Positions 20,888 through 34,629 of a DNA stretch of 64,000 bases are shown in pieces (within the stretch, counting starts at the first letter, position 1; the number at the start of each line of letters is the position of its first letter). The notes below the pieces were generated by a model. It searched no databases. It was not told the origin of the DNA and was given only the letters and a program-made list of their open reading frames with translations. This DNA is from an uncultured Planctomycetota bacterium (lineage in GTDB: Bacteria; Planctomycetota; SKW154; DAOVDS01). The position numbers and the translations under genes were made by a program. The stretch spans positions 65-64,064 of the forward strand of contig CAZXNM010000010.1 of assembly GCA_964641955.1 (NCBI GenBank), in the 5' to 3' direction.

Positions 20888-22003
20888 GTGATAATAGGTG
20901 TTCCGAAGGAGATCAAGAACAACGAGTACCGCGTCGGCATGACGCCGGCGGGCGTGGATGTGCTCGTGAGCGAAGGGCACGAGCTGTACGTCGAAACCAG
21001 CGCGGGAGCGGGCACCGGCTTCGACGACGCGGACTACGAGAAGGCCGGCGCGAAGATACTCAAGACCGCGGACGAGGTCTTCAAGAAGGCCGACATGATT
21101 ATCAAAATCAAGGAGCCTCTCGACCCCGAGTTCCCGAGACTCCGCAAGGGCCAGATACTCTTCACGTACCTGCACCTCGCGGGCGACAGGGCGCTTACGG
21201 AGAAGACGCTCGAAACAGGCTGCATAGGCATCGCATACGAGACTATGGAGCTGAAGAACGGCTCTCTGCCGCTGCTTGTGCCGATGAGCGAGGTGGCGGG
21301 CAGGCTCGCTACGGTCGAAGGCGCGAAGTACATGCAACGCACGTTCGGCGGACGCGGGATCTTCCTGGGCGGCGTTCCCGGGACGCAGCCGGCGCAGGTG
21401 CTGGTCCTGGGCGCGGGAATCGTCGGCAGGCACTCGATGCAGATGGCCGTCGGGCTGGGCGCGGACGTGACGATAATGACACGCAACGTGAACAGGCTGC
21501 GCGAAATCGACGCGACATACCAAGGCCGCGTCAAGACCCTGAAGATGACACCGTATTCCGTCAGGGAAGCGGTGACCCAGGCGGACCTGATTGTCGGCAG
21601 CGTTCTCGTGACAGGCGACAAGGCCCCATGGATTATCACCAGGGACATGCTCAAAACGATGCGAAAGGGCGCGGTCATCGTGGACGTGTCAATCGACCAG
21701 GGCGGCTGCTGCGAGACTTCGAAGCCGACGACCCACAGCGAGCCGATTTACGAGGTTGATGGCGTGATTCACTACTGCGTGGCAAACATGCCGGGCTGCG
21801 TGCCGCGGACATCGACTTTCGCGCTCACGAACGAAACCCTGCCCTACGCGGTCGAGATAGCCAACAAGGGCTGGAAGCAGGCCTGCAAGGACAACTACAC
21901 CATAAAGACAGGCCTTAACACGTTCGAGGGCAAGCTTACGTGCAAACCGGTAGCGGATGTGTTCGACATGCCCTTCACGCCGCCGGAGGAAGTCCTGGGA
22001 TAG
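20888..22003 (+). CDS. ald: Alanine dehydrogenase
   Basis: GTG start with GGAGG at spacing 8. [23 protein letters not shown]..., a Rossmann GAGIVG motif, and a 371-aa length typical of Ald. Ends at TAG. Confidence 0.9.
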
Positions 22004-22027
22004 AGCGGCGTTTCTCTTAAAGAAGAA

Positions 22028-22057
22028 GGCGGCAGGCTGAAGCCTGCCGCCTTTTCA
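22028..22057. terminator. Bidirectional intrinsic terminator (GGCGGCAGGC-tgaa-GCCTGCCGCC with T-rich flanks on both strands)
   Basis: 10-bp perfect GC-rich stem with a 4-nt loop, between convergent ald (+) and the GltB-like gene (-). TTTTCAT follows on the plus strand and TCTTCTTTAAG on the minus strand. Confidence 0.6.
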
Positions 22058-22078: not shown

Positions 22079-23656
22079 CTAACCCAGAATCTTCTCCACT
22101 TCTTCCCTGTCGAGGTCGCTCACCATCGGTATACCGCTGATTTTCGACGCCTCGGGCGTCAGGGCCGCGAGGTCGTCGCGTGAGATGTGCTCGAGTGCGA
22201 ACTTGCGCGAGCCGCACATGAGCTGGCGCATGCCTTGCGCAAGCCGCTCGTAATAAGTGTAGACACCCAGCGCGGCGGTCGGGATATCCTTGTAGTCGGC
22301 GCCGAACTCGCGCTTGAGGTGTTCGGCGGTGACGAAGATGGATTCCCTGTCCCTGCCGAAGCGCTCGAGGAATATGGGGAGCTGTCCGCTGTCGAGCGCC
22401 TTGCCGATAGTCTTGCCGACCATTGCGGCCGCGAGCGGAGCCCTGGCCATGCCGATTGCCTTGACGTACGGCGCGCCGAGGGCGAAGCACTTGAATATCT
22501 GGTCTTCGAGCACAATGCCGCTGGCGAAGACAATATCGGGCACGTACTCGCCCTTCGCGGCGAGCCTTTCGCAGTACTGGCGCGTGAGCGACCAGAGTTC
22601 GATGGGCGGCACGCCCCACTCGTTCATCATGCGCCACGGGCTCATGCCCGTGCCGCCGCCGGCCGCATCGACCGTCAGGTAGTCTATCTTGCCGAGGGAC
22701 GAGAACTTGACGGCGCGGGCGAGGTCGGCGGGCCTGTAGGCGCCCGTCTTGAGCGTGATGTACTTCGCGCCCGCGTTGCGGAGTTCCTCGACGCGGGCGA
22801 GGAAGCTCTCCTCGGTGACCATGCCTACGCGCGAGTGGCGCTCGAACTCGGTGAATACGCCTTTCTTGAACTCCTCGACGACGTTCGGGTCGAGCGGGTC
22901 GGGCAGTACGACGTAGCCGCGCTTCTTGAGAAGCTGGGCCTTTTCGAGGTTCTTTATCTTTACCTCGCCGCCTATGTCCTTGGCGCCCTGGCCCCACTTG
23001 AGCTCGACGGTGCGAATGCCGAGCTTCTCCAGAGCGTATTCCTGCGCGCCCAGCCGCGTGTCCTCGATGTTCGCCTGCAGGATTATCTCGCCGAAGCCGT
23101 CGCGCTGCCACTTCTGGAAGAGCTTGATGCGCCACTCGAGGTCGGGCGAATGCTGGACGCGACCGTTCTCGATTTTCGACTCGACATCCATGCCGCAGAC
23201 GTTCTCGCCTATCGTGAGCGCTCCTCCCGCAAGAGCGGAGCCGACCGCGAGGCCGTCCCAGTTTATCTTCGCGACGTTAGTGGAACCCAGACCCGGAATG
23301 ATAATGGGGAGACGCAGCTTGATGCCCTTGTCGTGCCCGAGCCTCGCCTCGAGGTTCACATTCGGGAAAATGGCCTTGTCCGAATCGGCCTCGATTCCGA
23401 TTGCTCCGACCGCCGTCCCCATTACGTTGAAGTGCGACAGGTCAACCGGGTAGTCCTTCTGCGAGGCGGTCGTGATAATGCCGAACGGCTGCGGGTAGAT
23501 GACCTCGTGGCCGCGGTAGGCGCTCTTGCCTATCTCGCACATGCCTATGCAGCCATCGACGCAGGTGACGCACATGCCGCTGCCCGGCGACCAGTCACCG
23601 CCCGTCCTGTTCTTCGTCAGCGTTGCCGCCGTCGCGTTGTACCTTGTCAACGTCAT
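22079..23656 (-). CDS. Standalone glutamate-synthase central-domain (FMN/Fe-S, Glu_synthase-family) protein, paralog 1; last gene of the sigma54-controlled operon
   Basis: N-terminal 4-Cys cluster (CVTCVDGCIGMCEIG), then the FMN-binding GltB domain-2 core (MSPWRMMNEWGVP, GG(T)GxSP-like motifs). AAGGAG lies 7 nt before the ATG at 23656. No amidotransferase or GXGXG domains. Confidence 0.8.
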   Translation of the reverse strand: MTLTRYNATAATLTKNRTGGDWSPGSGMCVTCVDGCIGMCEIGKSAYRGHEVIYPQPFGIITTASQKDYPVDLSHFNVMGTAVGAIGIEADSDKAIFPNVNLEARLGHDKGIKLRLPIIIPGLGSTNVAKINWDGLAVGSALAGGALTIGENVCGMDVESKIENGRVQHSPDLEWRIKLFQKWQRDGFGEIILQANIEDTRLGAQEYALEKLGIRTVELKWGQGAKDIGGEVKIKNLEKAQLLKKRGYVVLPDPLDPNVVEEFKKGVFTEFERHSRVGMVTEESFLARVEELRNAGAKYITLKTGAYRPADLARAVKFSSLGKIDYLTVDAAGGGTGMSPWRMMNEWGVPPIELWSLTRQYCERLAAKGEYVPDIVFASGIVLEDQIFKCFALGAPYVKAIGMARAPLAAAMVGKTIGKALDSGQLPIFLERFGRDRESIFVTAEHLKREFGADYKDIPTAALGVYTYYERLAQGMRQLMCGSRKFALEHISRDDLAALTPEASKISGIPMVSDLDREEVEKILG

Positions 23657-23716
23657 GCCCTGACTCCTTTCAAACCTTGCTAGCTATCCTTTGCCTTGAT
23701 TTCTCCTGGTCCCACT

Positions 23717-24382
23717 TTAATAGACTTTGTGGCCCGCGGCTCCCACGCTTTCCGAGCATCCTATGCATATTGGGCACGTCTCTACGGGTTCAAGATTTTG
23801 ACACCCGCCGCAGAGGCCATTGCTGAGACGGCCCGCAAGGCAGGCATTCTCACAAGCGGGGCATACCCACTCGCAGCCCCCGCAGTTGCGGCACTCCTCC
23901 GGCGTCACACCGAATGCAGTAGCCACCCTGCGCTGGTTACCGCGGCCCACAAAGCCTATTCCACCTGATTGCATCTGTTCCTTGCAATACCTGACACAGA
24001 GGCCGCAGAGGATGCAGCCCTTGTCCTTGATTTTGAAGCGTATCTCATTCAGCCCCATGTTAGAGGCCATGTCCTGAAGCGTCTTGGAGTTGGGGCATGA
24101 TGCAATGAGAAGCTCCAATATGACCTTCCGGGCCTTCTTTACGCGCTCTGTGCTCGTCAGAATCACCTGGCCCTGCGCCACCGGCAGGGTGCAGGAGGTC
24201 TCGAGCTTCGATTTCTTGCCCCTCACCACCTCCACAAGGCACATCCTGCACGCGCCGTACGTGCTCAGGCCCGGGTCGTAGCAGAGAGTGGGAATGATTA
24301 TCCCCATCTGCCTTGCAGCTTCGAGGACGGTGGTCCCTTCCTCGGCTCTTACGGGCATCCCGTCGATAGTAAGCTCAACCAT
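23717..24382 (-). CDS. NuoG-N-terminal/HndD-like ferredoxin ([2Fe-2S] plus two [4Fe-4S] motifs)
   Basis: MVELTIDGMPVRAEEGTTVLEAARQMGIIIPTLCY...CRMCLVEV is the 2Fe-2S region. CILCGLCVRYC and CRNCGGCEWVCP are the 4Fe-4S motifs. 221 aa. Confidence 0.7.
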   Translation of the reverse strand: MVELTIDGMPVRAEEGTTVLEAARQMGIIIPTLCYDPGLSTYGACRMCLVEVVRGKKSKLETSCTLPVAQGQVILTSTERVKKARKVILELLIASCPNSKTLQDMASNMGLNEIRFKIKDKGCILCGLCVRYCKEQMQSGGIGFVGRGNQRRVATAFGVTPEECRNCGGCEWVCPACENACLAGRLSNGLCGGCQNLEPVETCPICIGCSESVGAAGHKVY

Positions 24383-24398
24383 GTCAGCTCCATCCCGG

Positions 24399-26258
24399 TT
24401 AAGTTACGATAATAGCCTCGAACTTGCAGCTGTCGCGGCACAGGCCGCATCTTATGCACTTATCCGAATCGATGCTGTGCGGCTTCTTCTTTTCTCCCAA
24501 TATCGCCTCCTGGGGGCACGCCTTCGCGCACCTGCCGCATCCCGTGCATTTCTCCTCGTCAATGGAGAATGTGATAAGCGCCTTGCACGCGCCAGCCGGG
24601 CATCTTTTGTCCCTGATGTGGGCCTCGTACTCGTCGCGGAAGTAGCGAATCGTAGAGAGGACAGGATTCGGTGCCGTCCCGCCCAGAGCGCACAACGCCG
24701 CATCCTTGATGACGCCTCCGAGTTCCTCGAGCAGCTCGATGTCGCCTTCCTTCCCGCGGCCCTCGGTTATATCGGTGAGGATGTCGAGAATCCTATCGAG
24801 GCCCTCGCGGCAGGGAACGCACTTGCCGCAGGACTCTTCGGTCAGGAATTTCGTAAAGTAGCGGGCGAGGTCCACCATGCAGGTGGTCTCGTCCATAACA
24901 ATCATGCCGCCGGAGCCCATCATGGACCCGACCTTCGTAAGCTCGTCGAAGTCCACCGGCGAGTCTATAAGGCTCTCGGGAATGCATCCGCCGGATGGGC
25001 CTCCGGTCTGGACCGCCTTGAACTTCCTCCCGCCCGGGATTCCTCCGCCAATCTCGTATATTATTTCCCGCAGGGTGATGCCCATGGGCACTTCCACGAG
25101 GCCCGTGTTGTTAATCTTTCCCACGAGCGAGAATATCTTGGTGCCCTTGCTGCCCTCGGTGCCAATGCTCGAATACCAGTCGGCCCCCTTGCCGATTATC
25201 AGCGGTATGTTCGCCCAGGTCTCGACGTTGTTGAGGTTGGTTGGCCTGTTGTGCAGGCCGCTGACCACGGTGTGTATGTGTTTCGGCCTGGGCTCGCCAA
25301 TCTTGCCCTCGAGCGAGGCCATGAGCGCAGTTGACTCGCCGCAGACGAACGCGCCGCCGCCGCGCGAGACCTTGATGTCGAAGTTGAACTTCGAGCCCAG
25401 TATCTTCTTTCCCAGCAGCCCGTACTTCTTCGCCTGCTTGAGCGCCTTCTCCAGGTTTTCGACCGCGAGGGGATACTCGTGCCTGACGTAGACGTATCCC
25501 TCGCTGCTGCCTATCGCGTACGCACCTATAATCATGCCCTCGATGACGCTGTGGGGGTTGCCTTCGAGCAGGCTGCGGTCCATGTATGCGCCCGGGTCGC
25601 CCTCGTCCGCATTGCAGATTACGTAGCGGATGCCGTCGTGGGCAGGCGCGTTTCGCGCCGTCTCCCATTTCCTTCCGGTCGGAAATCCGCCGCCCCCGCG
25701 TCCGCGAAGCCCCGACTTCTTCACTTCCTCGATCACTTCCTCGGGCTTCATCTCGAAGAGGACCTTCGACAGCGCGGAATACCCGCCGATTGCCATGTAA
25801 TCTTCAATGCTGGTGGGGTCGATAAAACCGTTGCTGCCGAATACGAGCCTTTTCTGCTTCGCGTAGAATGGCACTTCTTCTTCGAGCTTGATTTTTTCCT
25901 TCGAGACTGGATCCCTGTACAGTAACCTCTCCACAATCCTGCCGTTCGCGAGCGTCTCTGTCACTATCTCGGGCATGTCATTCGGCTCGACCCGCTCGTA
26001 CATTATCTTTTCCGGATGTACCACGACAAGCGGACCGCGCTCGCAGAACCCGTGGCAGCCGGTGAGTTTCATCTCGATGCTGCCGTCGAGTCCCTGCTTC
26101 TTGATTTCCTTCTTGAGCCTGTTCGCGACCTTGACGCAGCCGTAAGCGCGGCATCCCGTGCCGCCGCAGACCGTGACAAGCCTCTTCTGCCTGCCTTTGT
26201 CGCCCTGGAGTCCCGCCCTGAATTCTTCCAGCTCAGTCGCCGACCGCAACTTTTTCAT
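24399..26258 (-). CDS. NuoF/HndC-like NAD(P)H-binding flavoprotein (51-kDa-subunit homolog) with extra ferredoxin domains
   Basis: NAD(H)/FMN motifs (GRGGGGFPTGRKWE, CNADEGDPGA), the SLBB region, the 4Fe-4S motif CGKCVPCREG, and C-terminal 2x[4Fe-4S] (CTGCGRCAKACP, CIRCGLCRDSC). 619 aa. Confidence 0.85.
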   Translation of the reverse strand: MKKLRSATELEEFRAGLQGDKGRQKRLVTVCGGTGCRAYGCVKVANRLKKEIKKQGLDGSIEMKLTGCHGFCERGPLVVVHPEKIMYERVEPNDMPEIVTETLANGRIVERLLYRDPVSKEKIKLEEEVPFYAKQKRLVFGSNGFIDPTSIEDYMAIGGYSALSKVLFEMKPEEVIEEVKKSGLRGRGGGGFPTGRKWETARNAPAHDGIRYVICNADEGDPGAYMDRSLLEGNPHSVIEGMIIGAYAIGSSEGYVYVRHEYPLAVENLEKALKQAKKYGLLGKKILGSKFNFDIKVSRGGGAFVCGESTALMASLEGKIGEPRPKHIHTVVSGLHNRPTNLNNVETWANIPLIIGKGADWYSSIGTEGSKGTKIFSLVGKINNTGLVEVPMGITLREIIYEIGGGIPGGRKFKAVQTGGPSGGCIPESLIDSPVDFDELTKVGSMMGSGGMIVMDETTCMVDLARYFTKFLTEESCGKCVPCREGLDRILDILTDITEGRGKEGDIELLEELGGVIKDAALCALGGTAPNPVLSTIRYFRDEYEAHIRDKRCPAGACKALITFSIDEEKCTGCGRCAKACPQEAILGEKKKPHSIDSDKCIRCGLCRDSCKFEAIIVT

Positions 26259-26748
26259 GCTTCTCGCCCTTCGGTGCTTTCCTGTATTTCTTGAGAATAT
26301 CCTTAACCTTCCCAGGAGTCATCTGGCCGTGGTATGTGCCATCTACGACCACGATGGGGCCGAGCGCACACGCACCGAGGCAGTTGACCGTCTCGAGCGT
26401 AAATTTCATGTCCCCGGACGTCTCGCCGGCCTTGATGCCCAACTCGCGCTGCAGCTCGTCGAGAACAGCCGGCGCTCCGCGAACGTGGCAGGCCGTCCCG
26501 AGGCAGACGCTGACAAGGTGTTCTCCCCTGGGCTTCAGGCTGAACGCCCGGAAGAACGTAGCGACCCCGTAGACCTGGATGTGGGGCAGGTTCAAGCTGT
26601 CGGCAACGCGCCTGAGAGCCTCTTCGGGCAGGTAATGATATTCGGATTGAATATCCTGCAGAATGGAGATAAGCGAGTCGCGGTTCCTGCCGTTTCTGTC
26701 GATTATCTTATCCACCCTTCGGGCAATACCCTCTACTCTCCGTATCAT
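26233..26748 (-). CDS. NuoE/HndA-like thioredoxin-fold [2Fe-2S] protein (24-kDa-subunit homolog)
   Basis: The four Cys of the NuoE cluster are present (CLGTACHVRG...CLGACALGP). Overlaps the nuoF-like start by 26 nt. Confidence 0.8.
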   Translation of the reverse strand: MIRRVEGIARRVDKIIDRNGRNRDSLISILQDIQSEYHYLPEEALRRVADSLNLPHIQVYGVATFFRAFSLKPRGEHLVSVCLGTACHVRGAPAVLDELQRELGIKAGETSGDMKFTLETVNCLGACALGPIVVVDGTYHGQMTPGKVKDILKKYRKAPKGEKHEKVAVGD

Positions 26749-26751
26749 TGT

Positions 26752-27060
26752 CTATGACCTTCCTTCGCTGAGTTTTCTGGCATAGCTTAGGTAGTGCCTG
26801 AGCAGCCACATCTTCTCCATATACTCGCTCCAGCCACACTCGGGCTTGAAGCCCTTTTCCGCCCTCGGAAGCACCATGCATCCTTCGGTCACGCAGCCTT
26901 TCATCTCTTCCCACATGTCAGACCAGACCTTCAGCGCATCCCGCAAAACAGAGGCGGTGACATTCCTGAGATGTCTGAGCTTCTTTTCGGGCGTGCAGAG
27001 TTCTGACAGGAGTTCGCCGTCTTTGCCAACGCCTATCGGTACGTCAAACTTCCCGCGCAT
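26752..27060 (-). CDS. Small conserved hypothetical protein (102 aa), paralog of the upstream gene
   Basis: ATG at 27060 with GAGGAGG at spacing 8; the ORF track extends to 27138. The C-terminal half (ALKVWSDMWEEMKG...LRHYLSYARKLSEG) matches the upstream paralog (ALEIWMEISRACN...LGHYLDYTRRLCDG). Stop lies 3 nt before the nuoE-like start. Confidence 0.45.
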   Translation of the reverse strand: MRGKFDVPIGVGKDGELLSELCTPEKKLRHLRNVTASVLRDALKVWSDMWEEMKGCVTEGCMVLPRAEKGFKPECGWSEYMEKMWLLRHYLSYARKLSEGRS

Positions 27061-27436
27061 CCGTTGTTCCTCCTCTTTTTTCTCGAGCGGCAATTGAGCC
27101 GTCACAGAGCCTTCGTGTATAATCGAGGTAATGCCCAAGCAGGTCGAGCTTCCTCCTCAAATCATCCCAGCCATGCAAAGGAAGCCGACTGGCGGGTTGT
27201 TCATCACCCTCAAGAATTTGCTCAACAGAGCGCACGTCATTACAGGCTCTGGAAATCTCCATCCAGATCTCAAGAGCCTTATTGATGATTGTGGCAGAGA
27301 TTCCCATGAAGTGCCTCATCTGGGCATTTACGCGTTCCATTTCTTTACGGAGATGCTCGTCATGACTGCTCACTGGAGAATCATGCGCATCCTTCAGGTT
27401 GTTACTTCTTCTTACCACCAGAAATAATCCTCTCAC
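27044..27436 (-). CDS. Small conserved hypothetical protein, first gene of the sigma54-controlled operon (start uncertain)
   Basis: GTG at 27436. Internal ATGs at 27340 and at 27307 (the latter with GAGG at spacing 6) are alternative starts. Paralogous to the 26752..27060 product. Confidence 0.4.
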   Translation of the reverse strand: MRGLFLVVRRSNNLKDAHDSPVSSHDEHLRKEMERVNAQMRHFMGISATIINKALEIWMEISRACNDVRSVEQILEGDEQPASRLPLHGWDDLRRKLDLLGHYLDYTRRLCDGSIAAREKRGGTTDAREV

Positions 27437-27693
27437 TTCAGATAATCACTGCCTCTCGCAGGTCCGGGATTTCAACTTCACTGCTGTTGAGGTTTATCTT
27501 CCGAATTGTTTCGTTCCTTCTCCGACAGCGTCGCGGACGGCTTCACCTGCGTATCTTCTTCAAACTCATCGCACTCAAGCACCCAGCCTTCAGGCTTTAT
27601 GTATGTACATGTTCCTCTCTTCTTGCAGCGTTCACAAATGCCCCGGGTCACAGGCAGTTACCTTCTAAAAATTCACAGAAACAGCGCCGAATT

Positions 27694-27712
27694 AAGCAAC
27701 CTGCGTGCCACT
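27694..27712 (-). promoter_or_regulatory. Sigma54 (-24/-12) promoter: minus-strand TGGCACG-cagg-TTGCT driving the operon below
   Basis: Minus-strand read of 27712..27696 is TGGCACGCAGGTTGCTT, matching the consensus TGGCACG-N4-TTGCW with GG-N10-GC spacing exact. Predicted start site near 27684, about 250 nt upstream of the first operon gene and next to an NtrC-family activator gene. Confidence 0.6.
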
Positions 27713-27737: not shown

Positions 27738-27923
27738 GCAACCTCTTGCCATAAAAGGACTTGAGGTTGCACAAAGCCTTTGCCTGTCGGAGAAAGCGGG
27801 ACGACCTCTGCTGCTAGTGCAACAGCAATGCTGTCTTGCGCTGCACTAAGGCATCTAACATATTGTCAGACAAGGGCTTATGGATGTGTGCAAGGATTGA
27901 ACACTACTGATGGATTTCCATCA
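27738..27923. promoter_or_regulatory. Three palindromes upstream of the sigma54 promoter (candidate enhancer/UAS sites)
   Basis: GCAACCTC-N17-GAGGTTGC at 27738-27770, TAGTGCA-N20-TGCACTA at 27815-27848, and TGATGGA-tt-TCCATCA at 27908-27923, all 25-215 bp upstream of the -24 element. Confidence 0.4.
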
Positions 27924-27931
27924 CGCATCAG

Positions 27932-29374
27932 CTATTCGGGGCTGCTGGTCACGATACCGTATTTCTTGATTCTGTGCCGCAGAGTGTTTCTGCTGACACC
28001 CAGCATTCTGGCGGCTTTGACCTGGTTGTTGCCGCATTCCCCGAGAGACCTTCTGACAAGCATTTCTTCAACCAAGTCTATGAGATTCGCATGTATCCCC
28101 TGACTGGAAATCTGGAGTACGTCGGATATCGCATCTTCAATTCTGGCTTTGACGTTAGCGAGGAGTTTCTCTTGGATTCCAGTGCGAGAAATGTCTTTCT
28201 CGTCTTCAAGTTCTATATGCTCATCAGCAACAACATCGCTCTTGCAGATTAGAATCGCCCGCTTTATACAGTTCTCAAGCTCCCTTACGTTGCCCGGCCA
28301 TGAGTACGACTGGAGCTTTCTTATCGCCGTATCGGCAACGAATCGCACCGGTTTGTCGAGTTCCTTGCCGAAACGTCCGACAAAGTAATCTACAAGAGCA
28401 GGGATGTCTTCCAGGCGTCTCCGTAGAGGAGGAAGGTCGATGGAGATCACCTTGAGGCGCCAGTACAAGTCTTCTCTGAACTTCCCTTCCTCGACCTCCT
28501 TTTCCAGATTCTTGTTAGTGGCCGCTATCATGCGCACGTTTATCTTGACAGTCTCCGAACCTCCAAGCCTTTCAAACTCTCCTTCCTGCAGTACTCTCAA
28601 CACCTTGGACTGAGTGGATAGCGACATATCTCCTATCTCATCGAAGAACAGCGTGCCGTTGTTGCATCTCTCAAACTTGCCGATGAAACTGCGATCGGCA
28701 CCGGTAAAAGCACCGCGCTCGTATCCAAACAGCTCACTTTCAAAGAGGTTGTCGGGTATAGCCGCGCAGTTTATCGCTAAAAAGGGCTTGTCTTTCCTGT
28801 GACTGTGGTGGTATATCGCCCTCGCGACAAGCTCCTTTCCCGTCCCGCTCTCCCCTGTTATCAGGACACTAACGTCCTTACCCGCGACCTGTCCAATGAG
28901 CTTGAATACTTCCTGCATTCTCTGGTGGCTGCCGACAATCTTGACGACGCCCTTGCCCGCCGGAGAGACCTTACTCACGTCGTGAGGGAAGCTAACAACC
29001 TCTTTCATTAAACGGTTCACTTCGAGTGCATCTGCAGCTATCCTTTTAAGCTGCTCCATGTCGAAAGGCTTGAGCAGGTAATCGTACGCACCCAGCTTCA
29101 TAGCTTCGATGGCGGTTTCCGTCGTTCCGTATGCAGTCATAATTATCACGGGCGTCTTGAGTTGCGCTTTCCTGATTTCCTTGAGCGTCTCAAGCCCGCT
29201 CAATCCCGGCATCTTGTAGTCAAGCAAGACCAAGTCGAATTGTTCCTCCGACAATCGCTTGAGCGCTGAGGTGCCGTCGGTGCATGTGCTCACATTATAT
29301 TTCTGCTTCGTGAACAGCCGCTTCAGGAAATGCAGCAGACTCTCATCATTGTCAACCAGCAGTATCTTATCCAT
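27932..29374 (-). CDS. Sigma54-dependent response regulator (NtrC/Fis family; receiver, AAA+ and HTH domains)
   Basis: From the ATG: MDKILLVDNDESLL...D54-like LLDYKMPG, a sigma54-interaction domain (GESGTGKELVARAIH, GAFTGA, ESELFGYERGAFTGA) and a C-terminal Fis-type HTH (VKAARMLGVSRNTLRHRIKKYGI). The ORF track begins at an upstream TTG (29464). Confidence 0.85.
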   Translation of the reverse strand: MDKILLVDNDESLLHFLKRLFTKQKYNVSTCTDGTSALKRLSEEQFDLVLLDYKMPGLSGLETLKEIRKAQLKTPVIIMTAYGTTETAIEAMKLGAYDYLLKPFDMEQLKRIAADALEVNRLMKEVVSFPHDVSKVSPAGKGVVKIVGSHQRMQEVFKLIGQVAGKDVSVLITGESGTGKELVARAIYHHSHRKDKPFLAINCAAIPDNLFESELFGYERGAFTGADRSFIGKFERCNNGTLFFDEIGDMSLSTQSKVLRVLQEGEFERLGGSETVKINVRMIAATNKNLEKEVEEGKFREDLYWRLKVISIDLPPLRRRLEDIPALVDYFVGRFGKELDKPVRFVADTAIRKLQSYSWPGNVRELENCIKRAILICKSDVVADEHIELEDEKDISRTGIQEKLLANVKARIEDAISDVLQISSQGIHANLIDLVEEMLVRRSLGECGNNQVKAARMLGVSRNTLRHRIKKYGIVTSSPE

Positions 29375-29429
29375 GTGCTCTGTCACCTTCCGAGGTCTTG
29401 AGGCGGGAAGCTGTTCTCTGCTGCCGGCC

Positions 29430-31274
29430 CTAGTCGCCTCGCTCGTGTACCACGGGAAGAACAATCGAGAAACTCGACCCCTTTCCCTGTTTACTCTCTA
29501 CATGGATTTCTCCTCCATGCGCCCGTATGGTGGTTTGGGCAATTGAGAGTCCCAGCCCCGTTCCCGACGCCTTTGTAGTGAAGAACGGGTCAAACAATTT
29601 CAGGATGGATTCTGATTCTATCCCAGGGCCCGTATCACCCACCTCGATTCGCACACAATTTTGCAACCTGCCATCAAGCTCCTCGCGGCCAGAAGTCGCC
29701 CTTATGGTCAAGACGCCCTTCACGGTCATGGCCTCAAGTGCATTCACCAGAAGATTCAGGAGAGCTTCGCCGAGTTGCTTCTTGTCACCTCTTATATCCG
29801 GGAGGCCATTGGCGATGTCCTTTCTGACGATGGTCTCCTGCTGGTAGGCTTTCGGCTGGACGACGAGAAATGAGTCATCAATCAGCTGCGCGATATTCAC
29901 GGTCGAGAAGACAGGTTCCTGGGGTTTGGCGAAATCGAGGAACCGGTTTATCGTCGCCTCTATCCGCTTTACCTGCAACATGGCAAGCTCGAAATCCTTT
30001 GTGTATTCTGGCGAGATTTCTATCTCGCTTTTCACCGACTGCAGAAAGAGCTTCAATGACGAAAGCGGCGTTCTTATCTCATGCGTGACACCGGCTGCCA
30101 GCTGCCCAAGTGCGGCAAGCCGCTGCGACCTGGCTGCCGCTTCCTCGGTTCTGCGCAGCTTCACGTCGGTTTCTTTCAATTCCGTCTGTGTTGACTCTAC
30201 TTTTTCCTCGAGGCTGTTGTGTTTGGCCTGAAGCTGACTCGCCATGTTGCCAAACGCAGTGTAGAGAACGCCTATCTCGTCGCCGCGGTCCGTCTTCAAC
30301 TGCGTACCCGTAAAATCGCCTCTCGCCAACATGTCCGCCGCGCTGCTCAGTCGTTCTACTGGCCTGGCGATGTAGTACCCGAGGAGCCAAGCAACTGCGA
30401 TGGCGGCGAGGATTGACAGGATAAATACTGTAAGCACGTAGCGCTTCAGTCGATCCGAGCTTTCAAATGCTTCATCCCTGTCCTGCTCGACCACGAGATG
30501 CCAATCCGTGCCAGAAACACCACGTGTTGCTCCAAGAACTTCGATACCCCTGTAGTCCGTGTAGGCACTCTTCCGGTTTCTCTTGCCAAAGATGTTCTTG
30601 AAGCTCCCCGACTGGGCTATGCTCTCAGAAAGAATCCGTTGGGGCTCCTTGTGCGCAAGGAAGGTTCCCTCCTTGTCCACAAGATAGCATTCGCCTGTCC
30701 GGCCAAGAGAAACCTTGAGCACTATGGAAGAAATCGCCTCCGTGCCCACCACTTCGCAGATAACACCACGGATTGCGCCTTTCTCGCCGTATATCGGCGC
30801 TGAAATCCGAAAGACAGATTCGTTCCAGTGCGGCTCGATACTGATTTCGGACAGATACAGCTCGCCAGCCCGGGCCCGTTTGAACCATTCCTCGCCTGAA
30901 TGGTCTCCCTTTTCCGGGGAGTTATTGAAAAGAGTGTCCCCATCCTTGTTGACAATCATAAATCCCCTGTAAACCCCGTATTCTTTCCCGACAAGCTCGA
31001 TATACGGGCGCATCAGGGACGGGTCCATCGCTTTCACCACAGACGAACCGGCTATTACCCGAGCATCCGCCTTGCGTTCCAAGAGCCACCTTTCAACCAG
31101 GTCCCTCTTGTCGTTGGCAACATTTTCCAGGCGGCTGGTTACCATGTTCGTGATAAGCTCATCCGCAGTGTGCACTGAGAAGACACTTACTACTCCCAAA
31201 GGCACGATTGATACTATCATGAAGAGTAGCATTACTCTGACGTGAAGCCTGTTGAGGAATCCGACAGCTGCCAA
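29430..31274 (-). CDS. Sensor histidine kinase (extracytoplasmic Cache/PDC-like sensor, HAMP, HisKA, HATPase_c)
   Basis: N-terminal transmembrane helix, a sensor domain of about 250 aa, a second helix, HAMP, an H-box (LAAGVTHEIRTPLSSL), and N/G1/G2 boxes (LLNLLVNALEAM, DTGPGI, GTGLGLSI). Its 3' end overlaps the regulator gene. Confidence 0.8.
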   Translation of the reverse strand: MAAVGFLNRLHVRVMLLFMIVSIVPLGVVSVFSVHTADELITNMVTSRLENVANDKRDLVERWLLERKADARVIAGSSVVKAMDPSLMRPYIELVGKEYGVYRGFMIVNKDGDTLFNNSPEKGDHSGEEWFKRARAGELYLSEISIEPHWNESVFRISAPIYGEKGAIRGVICEVVGTEAISSIVLKVSLGRTGECYLVDKEGTFLAHKEPQRILSESIAQSGSFKNIFGKRNRKSAYTDYRGIEVLGATRGVSGTDWHLVVEQDRDEAFESSDRLKRYVLTVFILSILAAIAVAWLLGYYIARPVERLSSAADMLARGDFTGTQLKTDRGDEIGVLYTAFGNMASQLQAKHNSLEEKVESTQTELKETDVKLRRTEEAAARSQRLAALGQLAAGVTHEIRTPLSSLKLFLQSVKSEIEISPEYTKDFELAMLQVKRIEATINRFLDFAKPQEPVFSTVNIAQLIDDSFLVVQPKAYQQETIVRKDIANGLPDIRGDKKQLGEALLNLLVNALEAMTVKGVLTIRATSGREELDGRLQNCVRIEVGDTGPGIESESILKLFDPFFTTKASGTGLGLSIAQTTIRAHGGEIHVESKQGKGSSFSIVLPVVHERGD

Positions 31275-31420: not shown

Positions 31421-33010
31421 TCACGAATTTAGGATTTCTTCCGCCTGAGACCTATAAGCATCCATGACGTATGGAATGCCCGTAATATCGGTGCATTCCC
31501 TCGAAAGGCTCATGAGGTCATCGCGGGAAATCTTGTCGAGAGTGAAGTGCCGGGCTCCAGCCATCAGCTGCTGAAGTCCGACCGACATCTTCTGGGCGTA
31601 CGAGTATATTCCAATCGCGCCCAGCGGTATGTTCTTCATCTCGTCCTTGCCGACTATGTCTGCCACTTCCTCCCAGCAGACGAAAAGCTCTTCCGGCTTC
31701 GCGCCGTAGCCTTCAAGTGACTTGGGCAGATTGTTGTCCTTGATCCACTCGGCTGCGTTCTTGCCGACCATACCGGGTATCATAAGCGCGCGTCCCATGC
31801 AGATTGCCTTCACGTAAGGAGCGCCAAGCGCGATAGCCTTGAAGGCATGGTCTTCTGCGCTGAATCCGCCTGCAAACGCCAGGTCGGGAACCCTCTCGCC
31901 ATTCTTGGTCAGCTTATCGGCAAACTGGACTGCCGCAGCGTGCAGGTGCAGAGTCGGCACGCCCCACTCGTTCATCATGCGCCACGGGCTCATGCCGGTA
32001 CCGCCACCAGCGCCGTCTATCGTGAGAAGGTCAACTTCGCCCTTGCTGCCCCATTTGAGGGCCATGGCGAGTTCGCGAAGACCGTAGGCCCCAGTCTTGA
32101 GAGTGATTCTCTCGAATCCGATCTTACGCAAACGGTCACATTCCGCGAGGAACGACTCCTCGCTTATGAAGCCCAGCCTGCTGTGACGCTCGAATTCCTT
32201 TATCGCTCCGTCCTTGAATGCGGCCTGAACGACAGGATCCTCGGGGTCGGGTGTCACGATGTAGCCCCGGCCCTTCAACTGCAGTGCTCTTTCCAGTGAG
32301 CCTATCTTTATCTCGCCGCCGATGCATTTCGCGCCCTGGCCCCACTTGAGTTCTATCGTGTTCAGGCCGTGCTTCTCGTGAACGTACTCCCCAACACCAA
32401 GCCGGGTGTCTTCTACGTTCATCTGAACGAGAATCTCACCGTAACCTCTGTGGTAGCGCTTGTAGACCTCCATGCGGCGGTCCATGTCGGGCGCTTTGAC
32501 GACCTTGCCGTTCTTGAGCTCAAGCTTGGGGTCAATACCGCAGACATTCTCGCCACATACGATGGTGCATCCGGCCAGTGCCGCGCCGATTGCGAAGTGC
32601 TCCCAGTTCGCCCGTGCTATTTCCGTTGAACCCAGCGCACCTGTAAAGAACGGGGCGAGCATCTTGACTTTCTTCTCCCAGCCGTACTCGGTTTCAACAC
32701 TTACAGCGGGAAAAGTACATGTGTCAGGGTTTGCATCTACGCCCTCAGGGAGCCCATCGCCGCCAAGTGCGTAACCCTGGATGTTAAGGTGCGTGTAGTC
32801 AACGGGATAGTCCTTGTCGGCACCTGCGGTTACCTTGCCGAACGGTCCCGGGTAGATAAGTTCCCTGCCCCGGAAAGTTGCCAGCCAGACTTCGCAAGTA
32901 CCGCGACAACCATCAACGCACCGTGAACATAAACCTGAAAGCGGCGCCACGCTCCGCGACCTGTTTGAGGTCTTGGTGGCATCATCTGCATTTGGCCTCT
33001 GCAGCGTCAT
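31421..33010 (-). CDS. Standalone glutamate-synthase central-domain (FMN/Fe-S) protein, paralog 2
   Basis: Colinear with the 22079..23656 product (CSRCVDGCRGTCEV ... MSPWRMMNEWGVP ... same C-terminal region) at about 40% identity. AAGGAAGG RBS. Confidence 0.8.
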   Translation of the reverse strand: MTLQRPNADDATKTSNRSRSVAPLSGLCSRCVDGCRGTCEVWLATFRGRELIYPGPFGKVTAGADKDYPVDYTHLNIQGYALGGDGLPEGVDANPDTCTFPAVSVETEYGWEKKVKMLAPFFTGALGSTEIARANWEHFAIGAALAGCTIVCGENVCGIDPKLELKNGKVVKAPDMDRRMEVYKRYHRGYGEILVQMNVEDTRLGVGEYVHEKHGLNTIELKWGQGAKCIGGEIKIGSLERALQLKGRGYIVTPDPEDPVVQAAFKDGAIKEFERHSRLGFISEESFLAECDRLRKIGFERITLKTGAYGLRELAMALKWGSKGEVDLLTIDGAGGGTGMSPWRMMNEWGVPTLHLHAAAVQFADKLTKNGERVPDLAFAGGFSAEDHAFKAIALGAPYVKAICMGRALMIPGMVGKNAAEWIKDNNLPKSLEGYGAKPEELFVCWEEVADIVGKDEMKNIPLGAIGIYSYAQKMSVGLQQLMAGARHFTLDKISRDDLMSLSRECTDITGIPYVMDAYRSQAEEILNS

Positions 33011-33507: not shown

Positions 33508-34629
33508 TTACAGATTGTGCTTGCGGAACCCCATGGCCGCCTTCACCCTCTCCTTGGCCATGTTGATTGCCGCGTCCCTGGGCAGGTCGCCGCCCTTGAC
33601 CCTGTCGAGAAGTTCCTTCACGTTCTGCTCGATTCTGAATTTGATGAACGGGAAGACCTCGTTTTCGCTCTTGTCGTGATACTCAAGGGCACCACAGATG
33701 ACTCCGCCGGCATTGGCGATGAAGTCCGGTATGACCAGGACGCCCCTTTTGTGAAGCTCGGCCTCCGCCTCGACTGTCGCGGGAATGTTTGCGCCCTGAA
33801 CAATCAGCCTGGCCTTGACGCCCGCGACGTTGTCCATGGTGATGCAGTCCGGCCTTGCTGAAGGATAGAGAATGTCGCACTCGGCCGTGACGACATCCTC
33901 TTTCTTCGAGAGCTTCTCGGCTTTCTTGTAATCCGTGACCTTGCCGGTCTTGGCCTTGACCTTGACGAGTTCATCGACGTCGATGCCGTCGGGGTTGTAG
34001 ATGGCGCCCTTGCTGTCGCTGGCGCCGACGAGAATCGCGCCCCTCTCGTCCATGAATTGCGCCGTGGGCCGGCCCACGTTGCCGAACCCCTCGATGACGT
34101 ACTTGGAGCCTTTGATGTCTATCTTCGCCGTCGGGGCGGCCACTTCGGTCGCAATTACGCAGCCGTACGCGGTCGCGCCGATTTCATCAAGCGGAATGCC
34201 GCCGAGGCTCCTCGGCAGGCCGACGCAGCGCCCTATCTCGTCGAAGACGTACGCCATGCTGCCTTCGTCGGTGCCCATGTCCGGGCCGGGGATGTACTCG
34301 GTGACGTTGCGAATCATCCGGGCGAAGGTGCGAATCAGTTCTTCGCGCTTCTCCTCGGGCTGGGTCGGGTCGGCGATAATGCCGGATTTCCCGCCGCCGT
34401 GCTTCAGGCCAGCCGCAGCGTTCTTAAAGGTCATGCCCCTGGCGAGCCTGAAAACCTCGGTTGTCGTGACATCGGGCACCATCCTGACGCCGCCTATCGC
34501 GGGGCCCCTCGCCACGTTGTCAACGCATACTATAGCTCTCAGCCCCACTTTCGGCTCATAGAGATGCATTACTCTCATGGGACCAATATCATCCTGCAGA
34601 TTTTCGCAGATGAAATCGCAAGGTTCCAT
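33508..34629 (-). CDS. Glu/Leu/Phe/Val-family amino-acid dehydrogenase (glutamate dehydrogenase-like)
   Basis: A GGxK active-site region (KHGGGKSGI) and an NAD(P) Rossmann motif (GFGNVG), 373 aa. GGAGGTG RBS 5 nt before the ATG at 34629. Confidence 0.85.
   Translation of the reverse strand: MEPCDFICENLQDDIGPMRVMHLYEPKVGLRAIVCVDNVARGPAIGGVRMVPDVTTTEVFRLARGMTFKNAAAGLKHGGGKSGIIADPTQPEEKREELIRTFARMIRNVTEYIPGPDMGTDEGSMAYVFDEIGRCVGLPRSLGGIPLDEIGATAYGCVIATEVAAPTAKIDIKGSKYVIEGFGNVGRPTAQFMDERGAILVGASDSKGAIYNPDGIDVDELVKVKAKTGKVTDYKKAEKLSKKEDVVTAECDILYPSARPDCITMDNVAGVKARLIVQGANIPATVEAEAELHKRGVLVIPDFIANAGGVICGALEYHDKSENEVFPFIKFRIEQNVKELLDRVKGGDLPRDAAINMAKERVKAAMGFRKHNL

What the first reader, a model, noticed from the sequence alone, without database searches (positions are those of the whole stretch)
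26752..27436. Two paralogous small proteins of unknown function leading the NuoEF/GltB-like operon
The two products (about 100 and 87-130 aa) share a C-terminal block: ALKVWSDMWEEMKG...LRHYLSYARKLSEG versus ALEIWMEISRACN...LGHYLDYTRRLCDG. They sit immediately upstream of the nuoE-like gene, with the stop 3 nt before its start. I cannot assign them to any family. Their position suggests a dedicated assembly, regulatory or scaffolding role for the flavin/Fe-S complex. The true start of the first gene is ambiguous among GTG 27436, ATG 27340 and ATG 27307.
Basis: seen in the sequence. Interest (0 to 1): 0.55.

Follow-up and report, generated by a model that had tools for sequence, protein, structure and literature searches.

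The report
Small hairpin proteins leading glutamate-enzyme operons
The two small genes are real and belong to an unnamed family of roughly 100-residue helical-hairpin proteins that, in several bacterial phyla, sits next to genes for glutamate-making enzymes (usually glutamate dehydrogenase), so they are probably small regulators of that metabolic node rather than helpers of the NuoEF iron-sulfur complex.

Summary
Two overlapping minus-strand genes, A (27418/27436..27044, 124-130 aa) and B (27060..26752, 102 aa), are paralogs (BLASTP E=2e-10). Both are under purifying selection, and each is predicted to fold as a two-helix hairpin.

They are the second and third genes of a seven-gene operon. 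It starts at a perfect sigma-54 promoter (27710..27695) and ends at a terminator (22053..22026): Cys4 mini-ORF, A, B, NuoE, NuoF, HoxU-like, GltB-like. A dCache histidine kinase and an NtrC-like activator lie directly upstream.

No Pfam, NCBIfam or PDB relative exists. An exhaustive profile search found about 120 clusters of relatives. In 81 related genome loci the gene directly downstream is:
- glutamate dehydrogenase (GDH) in 59 loci;
- NuoE/NuoF in only 10 loci;
- an MvhD-MetF-type glutamate synthase in a few loci.

Receiver-domain fusions occupy the same slot. A short subfamily lies directly downstream of GDH.

The family therefore tracks the glutamate node and often a sigma-54 two-component system, not the flavin/Fe-S complex. 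The most likely role is a protein-binding regulator, functionally comparable to GarA or IF7/IF17. That role is inferred, not shown. The likely start of A is GTG 27418, not ATG 27340 or 27307.

The parts
27695..27710 (-). sigma-54 (-24/-12) promoter TGGCACGCAGGTTGCT, 44 nt upstream of the first small ORF
   Evidence: It is the only perfect match in the 64-kb window. The element is conserved in L001 and L002. It is present with at most 1 mismatch upstream of the first family gene in 34 of 80 loci, against 0.011 expected per region.
27478..27651 (-). 57-aa Cys4 mini-protein (CxxC...C...C, motif QPGTWV/PEGWV), first gene of the operon
   Evidence: Homologs lie directly upstream of the family gene in 9 loci, 8 of them from Planctomycetota. 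pN/pS is 0.36 against L001. No Pfam or NCBIfam hit.
27044..27418 (-). gene A: A-type paralog, 124 aa from GTG 27418 (130 aa if from GTG 27436)
   Evidence: The AF2 model has pLDDT 81 with helices 18-59 and 83-106. A-type copies occur only in two-gene loci.
26752..27060 (-). gene B: B-type paralog, 102 aa, carrying the family's near-invariant GFxPxCGWxExxEK motif
   Evidence: The AF2 model has pLDDT 85 with helices 24-53 and 77-99. The motif is invariant in 82-83 of 83 B-type and single copies.
26233..26748 (-). NuoE/HoxE-like thioredoxin-like [2Fe-2S] protein
   Evidence: Pfam PF01257, E=1.9e-52. NCBIfam HoxE/NuoE models also match.
24399..26258 (-). NuoF-like FMN/NADH subunit with an N-terminal 2Fe-2S domain and a C-terminal 2x[4Fe-4S] domain
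23717..24382 (-). HoxU/NuoG-N-terminal-like 2Fe-2S + 4Fe-4S protein
22079..23656 (-). 525-aa divergent glutamate-synthase FMN-domain protein with an N-terminal CxxCxxxCxxxC motif
   Evidence: Pfam PF01645, E=2.9e-9. Sequence. No PDB relative by sequence.
22026..22053 (-). intrinsic terminator (12-bp stem, 9 GC pairs, T-rich tail) ending the operon
27932..29464 (-). NtrC-like sigma-54 activator (REC-AAA+-HTH_8), presumed regulator of the operon
   Evidence: An activator lies within 1.2 kb upstream in 29 of 29 evaluable A+B pair loci.
29430..31274 (-). dCache_1-HAMP-HisKA-HATPase sensor kinase
   Evidence: Conserved upstream in 32 of 81 loci.

Best explanation
A and B are two translationally coupled, cytoplasmic proteins of about 12-14 kDa. 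Each folds as an antiparallel two-helix hairpin.

They belong to an unnamed family that is genetically tied to enzymes interconverting 2-oxoglutarate, ammonia and glutamate. The partner is mostly GDH. Here it is a NuoE-NuoF-HoxU-fed GltB-like flavoenzyme. Elsewhere it is an MvhD/MetF-fed glutamate synthase.

In this window the two genes are made, together with the enzyme, from a sigma-54 promoter driven by the adjacent dCache kinase and NtrC-like activator.

The most likely mechanism (inferred) is a small protein-binding regulator or adaptor of the glutamate node:
- B-type carries the invariant GFxPxCGWxExxEK surface and is the effector.
- A-type is a degenerate paralog that probably pairs with B, hairpin plus hairpin forming a four-helix bundle.
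- The pair binds either the co-encoded enzyme or a shared nitrogen-network partner and tunes its activity. Dosage is set by the sigma-54 circuit, and in fused variants by receiver-domain phosphorylation.

Shown: the genes, the paralogy, selection on the coding sequence, the family, the gene contexts, the promoter and the predicted fold. Inferred: A-B dimerisation, the binding target and the regulatory effect.
For: - Real, conserved genes.
- Family of about 120 clusters at 50% identity, nearly all 80-130 aa, with no named domain.
- Hairpin fold at pLDDT 85 and 81.
- Context in 81 loci: GDH directly downstream in 59, activator upstream in 41, NuoE/NuoF in 10, NrpR in 10.
- Glutamate synthase operons downstream in L006, L052 and L065. 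A GAF-type activator lies upstream in L012, and archaeal-type GOGAT lies nearby in L019.
- The distant short subfamily lies directly downstream of GDH in unrelated flanks, next to NrpR, Glu_synthase and GS. The linkage to GDH therefore survives a change of gene order.
- REC-family fusions occupy the same slot: activator, REC-FAM, GDH in L083, and REC-FAM followed by a NuoE-like gene in L084. This argues for a signal-controlled protein-protein function.
- B-type motif invariant in 82-83 of 83 copies across phyla.
- A-B gene spacing is mostly +2, +3, -1, -4 or -17 nt.
- Precedent: GarA, a small phospho-controlled protein, binds three unrelated enzymes of the same node, KDH, GDH and GltS (PMC5448819).
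- Precedent: two homologous small proteins, IF7 and IF17, inactivate GS (PMC7760959).
Against: - No binding or activity data exist.
- The fold is a generic hairpin with no significant structural neighbour, so it says nothing about function.
- The partner enzymes (ELFV hexamer, FMN TIM barrel) are unrelated in structure. This makes one direct binding mode less likely and leaves the target open.
- Co-transcription with the enzyme fits a stoichiometric subunit equally well.
- The perfect association of A-type copies with the two-component system may only reflect shared ancestry of those lineages.
Confidence: 0.45

Rival explanations
1. Feedback modulators of the sigma-54 circuit. The hairpins bind the NtrC-like activator or the kinase and damp or sharpen their own operon's expression, as PspA does for PspF, HrpV for HrpS, or TraM for TraR.
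For: - They are the first genes after the sigma-54 promoter.
- An activator lies within 1.2 kb upstream in 29 of 29 evaluable pair loci and in 10 of 45 single loci.
- The activator type varies (REC-type, and GAF-type in L012) while the family gene stays in place.
- REC fusions exist.
- The anti-activator TraM and kinase DHp hairpins appear among the structural hits, although none is significant.
Against: - 35 of 45 evaluable single-copy loci have no activator within 1.2 kb.
- Many Phycisphaerae and Pirellulales loci have neither an activator within 10 kb nor a -24/-12 element. They have a divergent LuxR-type regulator instead, yet keep the family-GDH pair.
- The short subfamily lies behind GDH with no two-component system nearby.
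Confidence: 0.2
2. Plain structural subunit or docking piece of the co-encoded enzyme. It would stabilise an oligomer or tether the enzyme to a partner, with no regulatory role.
For: - Tight translational coupling to the next gene in this window: 3-nt gap, one transcript.
- Constant adjacency to the enzyme gene in different gene orders.
Against: - The same small protein would have to fit three unrelated enzyme architectures.
- Canonical GDHs need no such subunit (established knowledge of ELFV dehydrogenases).
- The REC fusions point to a switchable function.
- Gaps between the family gene and GDH are typically 60-110 nt, not overlaps.
Confidence: 0.15
3. One reading: a dedicated assembly, scaffolding or regulatory factor for the NuoEF/GltB-like flavin/Fe-S complex.
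For: Position immediately upstream of nuoE here and in about 10 other loci: L001, L004, L007, L008, L011, L013, L033, L039, L051.
Against: - Only 10 of 81 loci have NuoE/NuoF downstream, while 59 have GDH, which has no Fe-S cluster or flavin.
- No Cys or His pattern is conserved family-wide. A-type copies often lack the Cys, and H30 is Asn in 13 of 51 single copies.
- There is no similarity to known Fe-S or flavin assembly factors.
Confidence: 0.08
4. Not functional proteins: chance ORFs or a translated leader whose peptide sequence does not matter.
For: Small size and lack of annotation.
Against: - Protein-level conservation across phyla, with E down to 1e-35 in a search of 1.8 billion proteins.
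- pN/pS of 0.23-0.37 with saturated synonymous sites.
- Good Shine-Dalgarno sequences.
- Confident fold predictions.
Confidence: 0.02

Closest known systems
GarA / OdhI (actinobacterial FHA-domain regulator of KDH, GDH and glutamate synthase)
   Same: - A small cytoplasmic protein acting purely by protein binding on structurally unrelated enzymes of the 2-oxoglutarate/glutamate node.
- Its activity is switched by phosphorylation in response to amino acids (PMC5448819).
- It is confined to one lineage (PMC12321487).
- The family here is linked to GDH and GOGAT-type genes, to an amino-acid-type dCache sensor kinase, and has receiver-domain fusions.
   Different: - No homology: the fold is a helical hairpin, not an FHA beta-sandwich.
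- The phospho-input would come from a His-Asp system, not a Ser/Thr kinase.
- Binding to any enzyme is unproven here.
IF7 / IF17 glutamine synthetase inactivating factors (cyanobacteria)
   Same: - Two homologous small proteins.
- Their abundance is set by a nitrogen regulator.
- They control a central nitrogen-assimilation enzyme by direct binding (PMC7760959).
   Different: - No sequence similarity.
- IF genes are not co-transcribed with their target.
- Here the neighbours are GDH and GOGAT-like enzymes rather than GS. GS is adjacent only in L090-L092.
PspA-PspF, HrpV-HrpS and TraM-TraR type anti-activators (my own knowledge of these systems)
   Same: - Small, mostly helical proteins.
- They are encoded in the regulated operon and bind back to the activator.
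- TraM is a helical-hairpin dimer and appears among the structural hits, which are not significant.
   Different: - No significant sequence or structural similarity.
- Most single-copy family genes have no activator nearby.
CpxP / Spy / ZraP helical-hairpin accessory proteins of two-component systems (my own knowledge)
   Same: - Helical-hairpin proteins of about 100-140 aa.
- Their genes are targets of the two-component system that they modulate. ZraP belongs to a sigma-54 system.
   Different: - Those are periplasmic, with signal peptides and LTXXQ motifs.
- A and B have hydrophilic N-termini.
- No family member hits any Pfam model.

Membership tests
Unnamed hairpin family defined here (profile of alignment A3) | Helix 1 motif L-x-H-F-x-x-V-x-x-S-x-x-x-D-A-x-x-x-W and helix 2 motif L-L-x-H-Y-L-D-Y-x-x-R, at about 100 aa | tested here: met
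   Window ORFs score E=5e-42 (B) and 9e-26 (A) against the family profile, and there is no other copy in the window. A and B fall into the A-type and B-type subprofiles.
Unnamed hairpin family defined here | Adjacency to a glutamate-node enzyme gene (GDH, GltB-like or GOGAT) | tested here: met
   In the window, B is followed by NuoE-NuoF-HoxU-GltB-like genes. Across the family: GDH in 59 of 81 loci, NuoE/NuoF in 10 of 81, GOGAT operons in L006, L052 and L065.
NuoEF / Fe-S flavoenzyme-specific assembly factor or subunit | Co-occurrence restricted to NuoEF-type operons | tested here: not met
   Only 10 of 81 loci have NuoE/NuoF downstream.
NuoEF / Fe-S flavoenzyme-specific assembly factor or subunit | Conserved metal- or cofactor-binding residues | tested here: not met
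   Across the family as a whole only A42, W46, P73, G76, W77 and L87 reach 90% conservation. The Cys is kept in 13 of 32 A-type copies, and H30 is Asn in 13 of 51 single copies.
Hpt / Spo0B-like phosphotransfer hairpin | Invariant phospho-accepting His on helix 1 | tested here: not met
   H30 is replaced by N, D or S in 16 of 115 aligned members.
CpxP/Spy/ZraP | Signal peptide and LTXXQ motif (Pfam models) | tested here: not met
   No Pfam hit for the window proteins or for any of 72 family members. The N-termini are hydrophilic.
TraM-like anti-activator | Significant structural or sequence similarity to TraM | tested here: not met
   Foldseek E=4.2-5.7 and TM about 0.45, no better than the other generic helical hairpins on the same hit list.
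PspA/HrpV-type negative regulator of a sigma-54 activator | Obligate co-occurrence with an activator gene | tested here: not met
   35 of 45 evaluable single-copy loci lack an activator within 1.2 kb. Many lack one within 10 kb.
PspA/HrpV-type negative regulator of a sigma-54 activator | Physical binding to the AAA+ domain | not testable with these tools
   Needs two-hybrid or ATPase assays.
Sigma-54-dependent operon (for the transcription unit that contains A and B) | GG-N10-GC -24/-12 element plus a cognate activator | tested here: met
   Perfect TGGCAC-N5-TTGCT at 27710..27695. An NtrC-like activator lies directly upstream. Actual sigma-54 dependence was not tested experimentally.
GarA-like or IF7/IF17-like small-protein enzyme regulator (functional class, not homology) | Direct binding to, and modulation of, a nitrogen-assimilation enzyme | not testable with these tools
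   Only genomic association is available.

The most novel reading that the evidence does not exclude
The family is a previously unrecognised class of small-protein regulators of glutamate dehydrogenase and glutamate-synthase-type enzymes, spanning several phyla (Desulfobacterota, Planctomycetota, Abyssobacteria and others). It would be functionally analogous to actinobacterial GarA or cyanobacterial IF7/IF17 but built on a helical hairpin. Its inputs would be a dCache/NtrC-like sigma-54 system and, in fused variants, direct receiver-domain phosphorylation. That would be a new post-translational layer of nitrogen control in these anaerobes.
Probability: 0.3. Interest if true: 0.75.

Novelty: new variant of a known kind. 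Interest (0 to 1): 0.55.

Why it matters
Control of the glutamate node (GDH, GOGAT, GS) is textbook in Proteobacteria, Actinobacteria and cyanobacteria. It is almost unknown in Desulfobacterota, Planctomycetota and their uncultured relatives.

A conserved, unnamed small protein that follows the GDH and GOGAT-like genes through changes of gene order, regulator type and phylum, and that also occurs fused to a receiver domain, is a concrete and cheap experimental handle on that control.

It also flags two unusual enzyme sets that the family marks as glutamate-related:
- a NuoE-NuoF-HoxU-fed GltB-like flavoenzyme;
- an MvhD/MetF-fed glutamate synthase.

If the proteins turn out to be mere subunits, the result is still a new family definition that would replace about 120 clusters of 'hypothetical protein'.

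Tried and rejected
- Pfam and NCBIfam scans of A, B and the 57-aa ORF gave nothing relevant. A Pfam scan of 72 family members gave nothing.
- A profile search against PDB sequences found only chance coiled-coil hits, E>0.2.
- Word-index homolog searches with single sequences found only 6 and 3 relatives. The exhaustive profile search was needed to see the family.
- The phosphorelay (Hpt/Spo0B-like) idea was rejected because the helix-1 His is not invariant.
- The metal or Fe-S chaperone idea was rejected for lack of conserved ligands.
- An Rfam scan of the window found no RNA element.
- A search for activator-binding inverted repeats upstream of the promoter found an 8-nt repeat (27738-27770), but it is not conserved in L001. 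This was left inconclusive.
- Literature searches found no paper on the motif or on a small protein next to GDH in these phyla.
- The first dN/dS run for B used a wrong coordinate and was redone.

Full report
**1. What is in the sequence**

On the minus strand, gene B runs from ATG 27060 to TAG 26752 (102 aa). AGGAGG lies 8 nt upstream of its start. Three bases separate its stop from the ATG of the NuoE-like gene at 26748.

Gene A ends at TGA 27046..27044 and overlaps the start of B by 17 nt.

**2. The start of gene A**

- The ortholog in locus L001 begins MVTRKK... and shares VSSHD(A/E)HLRKE(I/M)ERVNA with the window protein.
- The 26 codons upstream of ATG 27340 show pN/pS 0.36, with most changes at third positions.
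- In the AF2 model, helix 1 starts at residue 18, which is nine residues before that Met.
- ATG 27340 and ATG 27307 are therefore unlikely starts.
- GTG 27418 has GAGAGGA 9 nt upstream and is the start used in the source annotation (124 aa). It is the best candidate. GTG 27436 cannot be excluded.

**3. The transcription unit**

The only perfect TGGCAC-N5-TTGCW match in the 64-kb window lies at 27710..27695 on the minus strand. It sits 44 nt upstream of a 57-aa Cys4 ORF (27651..27478).

Seven genes then follow with little or no spacing:

| Gene | Coordinates | Evidence |
|---|---|---|
| 57-aa ORF | 27651..27478 | |
| A | 27418..27044 | |
| B | 27060..26752 | |
| NuoE/HoxE-like | 26748..26233 | |
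| NuoF-like with extra Fe-S domains | 26258..24399 | |
| HoxU/NuoG-N-like | 24382..23717 | |
| 525-aa divergent glutamate-synthase FMN-domain protein with N-terminal CxxCxxxCxxxC | 23656..22079 | |

A 12-bp GC-rich terminator follows at 22053..22026.

Directly upstream are an NtrC-like REC-AAA+-HTH activator (29464..27932) and a dCache-HAMP histidine kinase (31274..29430). Further upstream lie a second GltB-like paralog and an ELFV-type amino-acid dehydrogenase. An alanine dehydrogenase converges on the operon's end.

**4. Are they genes?**

- Against L001, pN/pS is 0.23 for B, 0.37 for A and 0.36 for the 57-aa ORF. Synonymous sites are near saturation.
- The same gene order (kinase, activator, (57-aa ORF), A, B, NuoE, NuoF) is found in L001. 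The order kinase, activator, A, B, with a sigma-54 promoter, is found in L002.
- AF2 predicts both proteins with good confidence as antiparallel two-helix hairpins. B has pLDDT 85 with helices 24-53 and 77-99 and an ordered connecting loop. A has pLDDT 81 with helices 18-59 and 83-106.
- The leader-only or chance-ORF reading is rejected.

**5. The family**

No Pfam or NCBIfam model matches A, B or any of 72 relatives. No PDB sequence or structure is significantly similar. All database names are 'hypothetical protein'.

Word-index searches found only 6 and 3 close relatives. An exhaustive HMMER profile search of 1.84 billion representatives found 120 clusters at E<=1e-3, 87 of them at E<=1e-10. 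Nearly all are 80-130 aa.

The consensus is L-x-H-F-x-N-V-x-x-S-x-x-x-D-A-x-x-V-W-x-x-x-W in helix 1, and G-F-x-P-x-C-G-W-P-E-F-L-E-K-x-W-L-L-K-H-Y-L-D-Y-x-x-R in the loop and helix 2.

There are two subtypes:
- **B-type.** All 51 single-copy genes and every second gene of a pair are B-type. In these, F71, P73, C75, G76, W77, E79 and E82 are invariant in 82-83 of 83 sequences.
- **A-type.** This subtype is found only as the first gene of a pair. There the motif is degenerate: the Cys is kept in 13 of 32 copies and the Trp in 19 of 32.

**6. Genomic context, the decisive evidence**

A scan of one genome per GTDB species gave 108 loci, of which 80 were kept. They come from:
- Syntrophobacteraceae and other Desulfobacterota;
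- many Planctomycetota (Pirellulales, Thermoguttaceae, Phycisphaerae, Sedimentisphaerales);
- Abyssobacteria, Poribacteria and unclassified MAGs.

Clustering of all neighbours in 81 loci, with Pfam checks, gives:

| Neighbour | Loci (of 81) | Notes |
|---|---|---|
| ELFV glutamate dehydrogenase, directly downstream | 59 | median gap 82 nt |
| Sigma-54 activator, upstream | 41 | |
| dCache kinase | 32 | |
| About 870-aa PPDK_N-domain protein, after GDH | 22 | |
| NrpR-type regulator | 10 | |
| NuoE and NuoF | 10 | |
| Divergent LuxR-type regulator | 21 | Planctomycete loci that lack an activator |

Further contexts:
- In L006, L052 and L065 the family gene follows an activator and precedes MvhD, MetV/MetF-like, Glu_synthase FMN and GXGXG/GATase genes. 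That is a glutamate synthase with an unusual electron-input module.
- L012 has a GAF-type activator. L019 has an archaeal-type GOGAT nearby.
- A -24/-12 element with at most 1 mismatch lies upstream of the first family gene in 34 of 80 loci, against 0.011 expected per region.
- Pairs (A+B) have an activator within 1.2 kb in 29 of 29 evaluable loci. Single copies have one in 10 of 45.

**7. Two further contexts**

- **Receiver-domain fusions.** P0057 and P0084 (207-209 aa) occupy the same slot: activator, REC-FAM, GDH in L083, and REC-FAM followed by a NuoE-like gene in L084.
- **A short subfamily.** A distant subfamily of about 80 aa keeps both helix motifs (ELRHFKxV...DA and LLDHYLDYTRRLCE) but lacks the loop. 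It lies 35-40 nt downstream of GDH in contigs with otherwise unrelated flanks. In L090-L092 it sits beside NrpR, a Glu_synthase-domain gene and glutamine synthetase.

The linkage to GDH and the glutamate node therefore survives changes of gene order, regulator and phylum.

**8. Interpretation**

The family is not specific to the NuoEF flavin/Fe-S complex. It has no family-wide metal ligands, so a dedicated Fe-S or flavin assembly role is poorly supported.

It is not a phosphotransfer hairpin, because the helix-1 His is not invariant. It is not a CpxP/ZraP-type periplasmic protein, because it has no signal peptide and no LTXXQ model hit.

A pure feedback role on the sigma-54 activator fits the pair loci and the REC fusions. 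It does not fit the many activator-less, promoter-less Planctomycete loci, or the short subfamily.

What is common to all contexts is an enzyme that interconverts 2-oxoglutarate, ammonia and glutamate. I therefore favour a small protein-binding regulator or adaptor of that node:
- B-type is the conserved effector.
- A-type is a degenerate partner that probably forms a heterodimeric four-helix bundle with B. This rests on the hairpin folds and on the tight translational coupling seen (gaps mostly +2, +3, -1, -4 or -17 nt).

The objection that GDH and GltB-type enzymes are structurally unrelated is softened by GarA. GarA binds and regulates KDH, GDH and glutamate synthase, and is switched by phosphorylation in response to amino acids (PMC5448819). 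Two homologous small proteins regulating a nitrogen enzyme also have a precedent in IF7/IF17 (PMC7760959). Sigma-54 and two-component control of gdhA has a precedent in Geobacter (PMC2995071).

All of this is analogy. Binding, target and effect are inferred, not shown. I put about 0.45 on this reading, 0.2 on activator/kinase feedback, 0.15 on a plain structural subunit, under 0.1 on the NuoEF-specific reading, and about 0.02 on non-function.

**9. Novelty and interest**

The family is undescribed in Pfam, NCBIfam, PDB and the searchable literature. The kind of thing it most plausibly is, a small accessory protein of a central nitrogen enzyme, is known from other phyla. I therefore rate it a new variant of a known kind, of moderate interest (0.55).

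It is not surprising in principle. It is a well-defined, testable lead in phyla where control of the glutamate node is unexplored, and it also marks two unusual glutamate-related enzyme sets.

**10. Limits**

- Gene calls in the related loci are my own ORF heuristics.
- Context counts are on one genome per species and on the best 80 of 108 loci.
- The A-type/activator association is confounded by phylogeny.
- No complex could be modelled, and two structure libraries were unavailable.

Noticed in passing
window 27478-27651 (-): A 57-aa Cys4 mini-protein (GICxRCKKRxxCxYxxPEGWVLECxEFEE) is the first gene after the sigma-54 promoter. Homologs with CxxC..C..QPGTWV..C lie directly upstream of the family gene in 9 other loci, 8 of them Planctomycetota. 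It has no Pfam or NCBIfam hit.
   Followed up: partly
window 22079-26748 (-), paralog at 31421-33010 (-): NuoE-NuoF-HoxU-like electron-input genes are coupled to a 525-aa divergent glutamate-synthase FMN-domain protein with an N-terminal CxxCxxxCxxxC motif. It has no PDB relative by sequence and only a weak Pfam hit. A second paralog sits upstream of the kinase. The set recurs in about 10 loci, often followed by an NrpR-type regulator. It may be an NADH-linked, ammonia-dependent glutamate-forming enzyme.
   Followed up: partly
L006 10359-18076; L052 10565-17547; L065 10555-14915: Operons of MvhD (FlpD), MetV/MetF-like methylene-THF-reductase-type proteins, a Glu_synthase FMN domain and a GXGXG/GATase protein lie behind a sigma-54 activator and the small family gene. 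This is a glutamate synthase with an Hdr/MetFV-style electron-input module.
   Followed up: no
L014 11915-14536, L046 2861-5476 and 20 other loci: A protein of about 870 aa with a central PPDK_N (PEP/pyruvate-binding, ATP-grasp) domain is conserved directly downstream of the family-associated GDH in both Syntrophobacteraceae and Planctomycetota. Its role is unknown.
   Followed up: no
L013 15022-16029, L010 7330-8376, L069 11744-12805, L090 897-1892: Bacterial homologs of the archaeal 2-oxoglutarate-sensing nitrogen repressor NrpR (HTH_12 + NRD1_2) sit in these GDH/GltB-like neighbourhoods, in 10 of 81 loci.
   Followed up: no
L086-L092 (for example L087 1786-2049, L090 4048-4290): A loop-less subfamily of about 80 aa lies 35-40 nt downstream of GDH. 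In L090-L092 it converges on glutamine synthetase.
   Followed up: partly
L083 1624-2247; L084 160-789: Fusions of a receiver (REC) domain to the hairpin domain (P0057, P0084) replace the free small proteins between the sigma-54 activator and GDH or NuoE.
   Followed up: partly
window 27738-27770: A perfect 8-nt inverted repeat, GCAACCTC-N17-GAGGTTGC, lies about 30-75 nt upstream of the -24 element. It could be an activator-binding site, but it is not conserved in L001.
   Followed up: partly
L060 3803-4897 (-) and 20 other Planctomycete loci: A 364-aa LuxR/GerE-type regulator is divergently placed upstream of the family-GDH pair in loci that lack a sigma-54 activator and promoter.
   Followed up: no
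window 20888-22003 (+) and 33508-34629 (-): An alanine dehydrogenase converges on the operon end, and a short (373 aa) ELFV-type amino-acid dehydrogenase lies upstream of the second GltB-like gene. The whole 14-kb stretch looks like an amino-acid/ammonia island.
   Followed up: no
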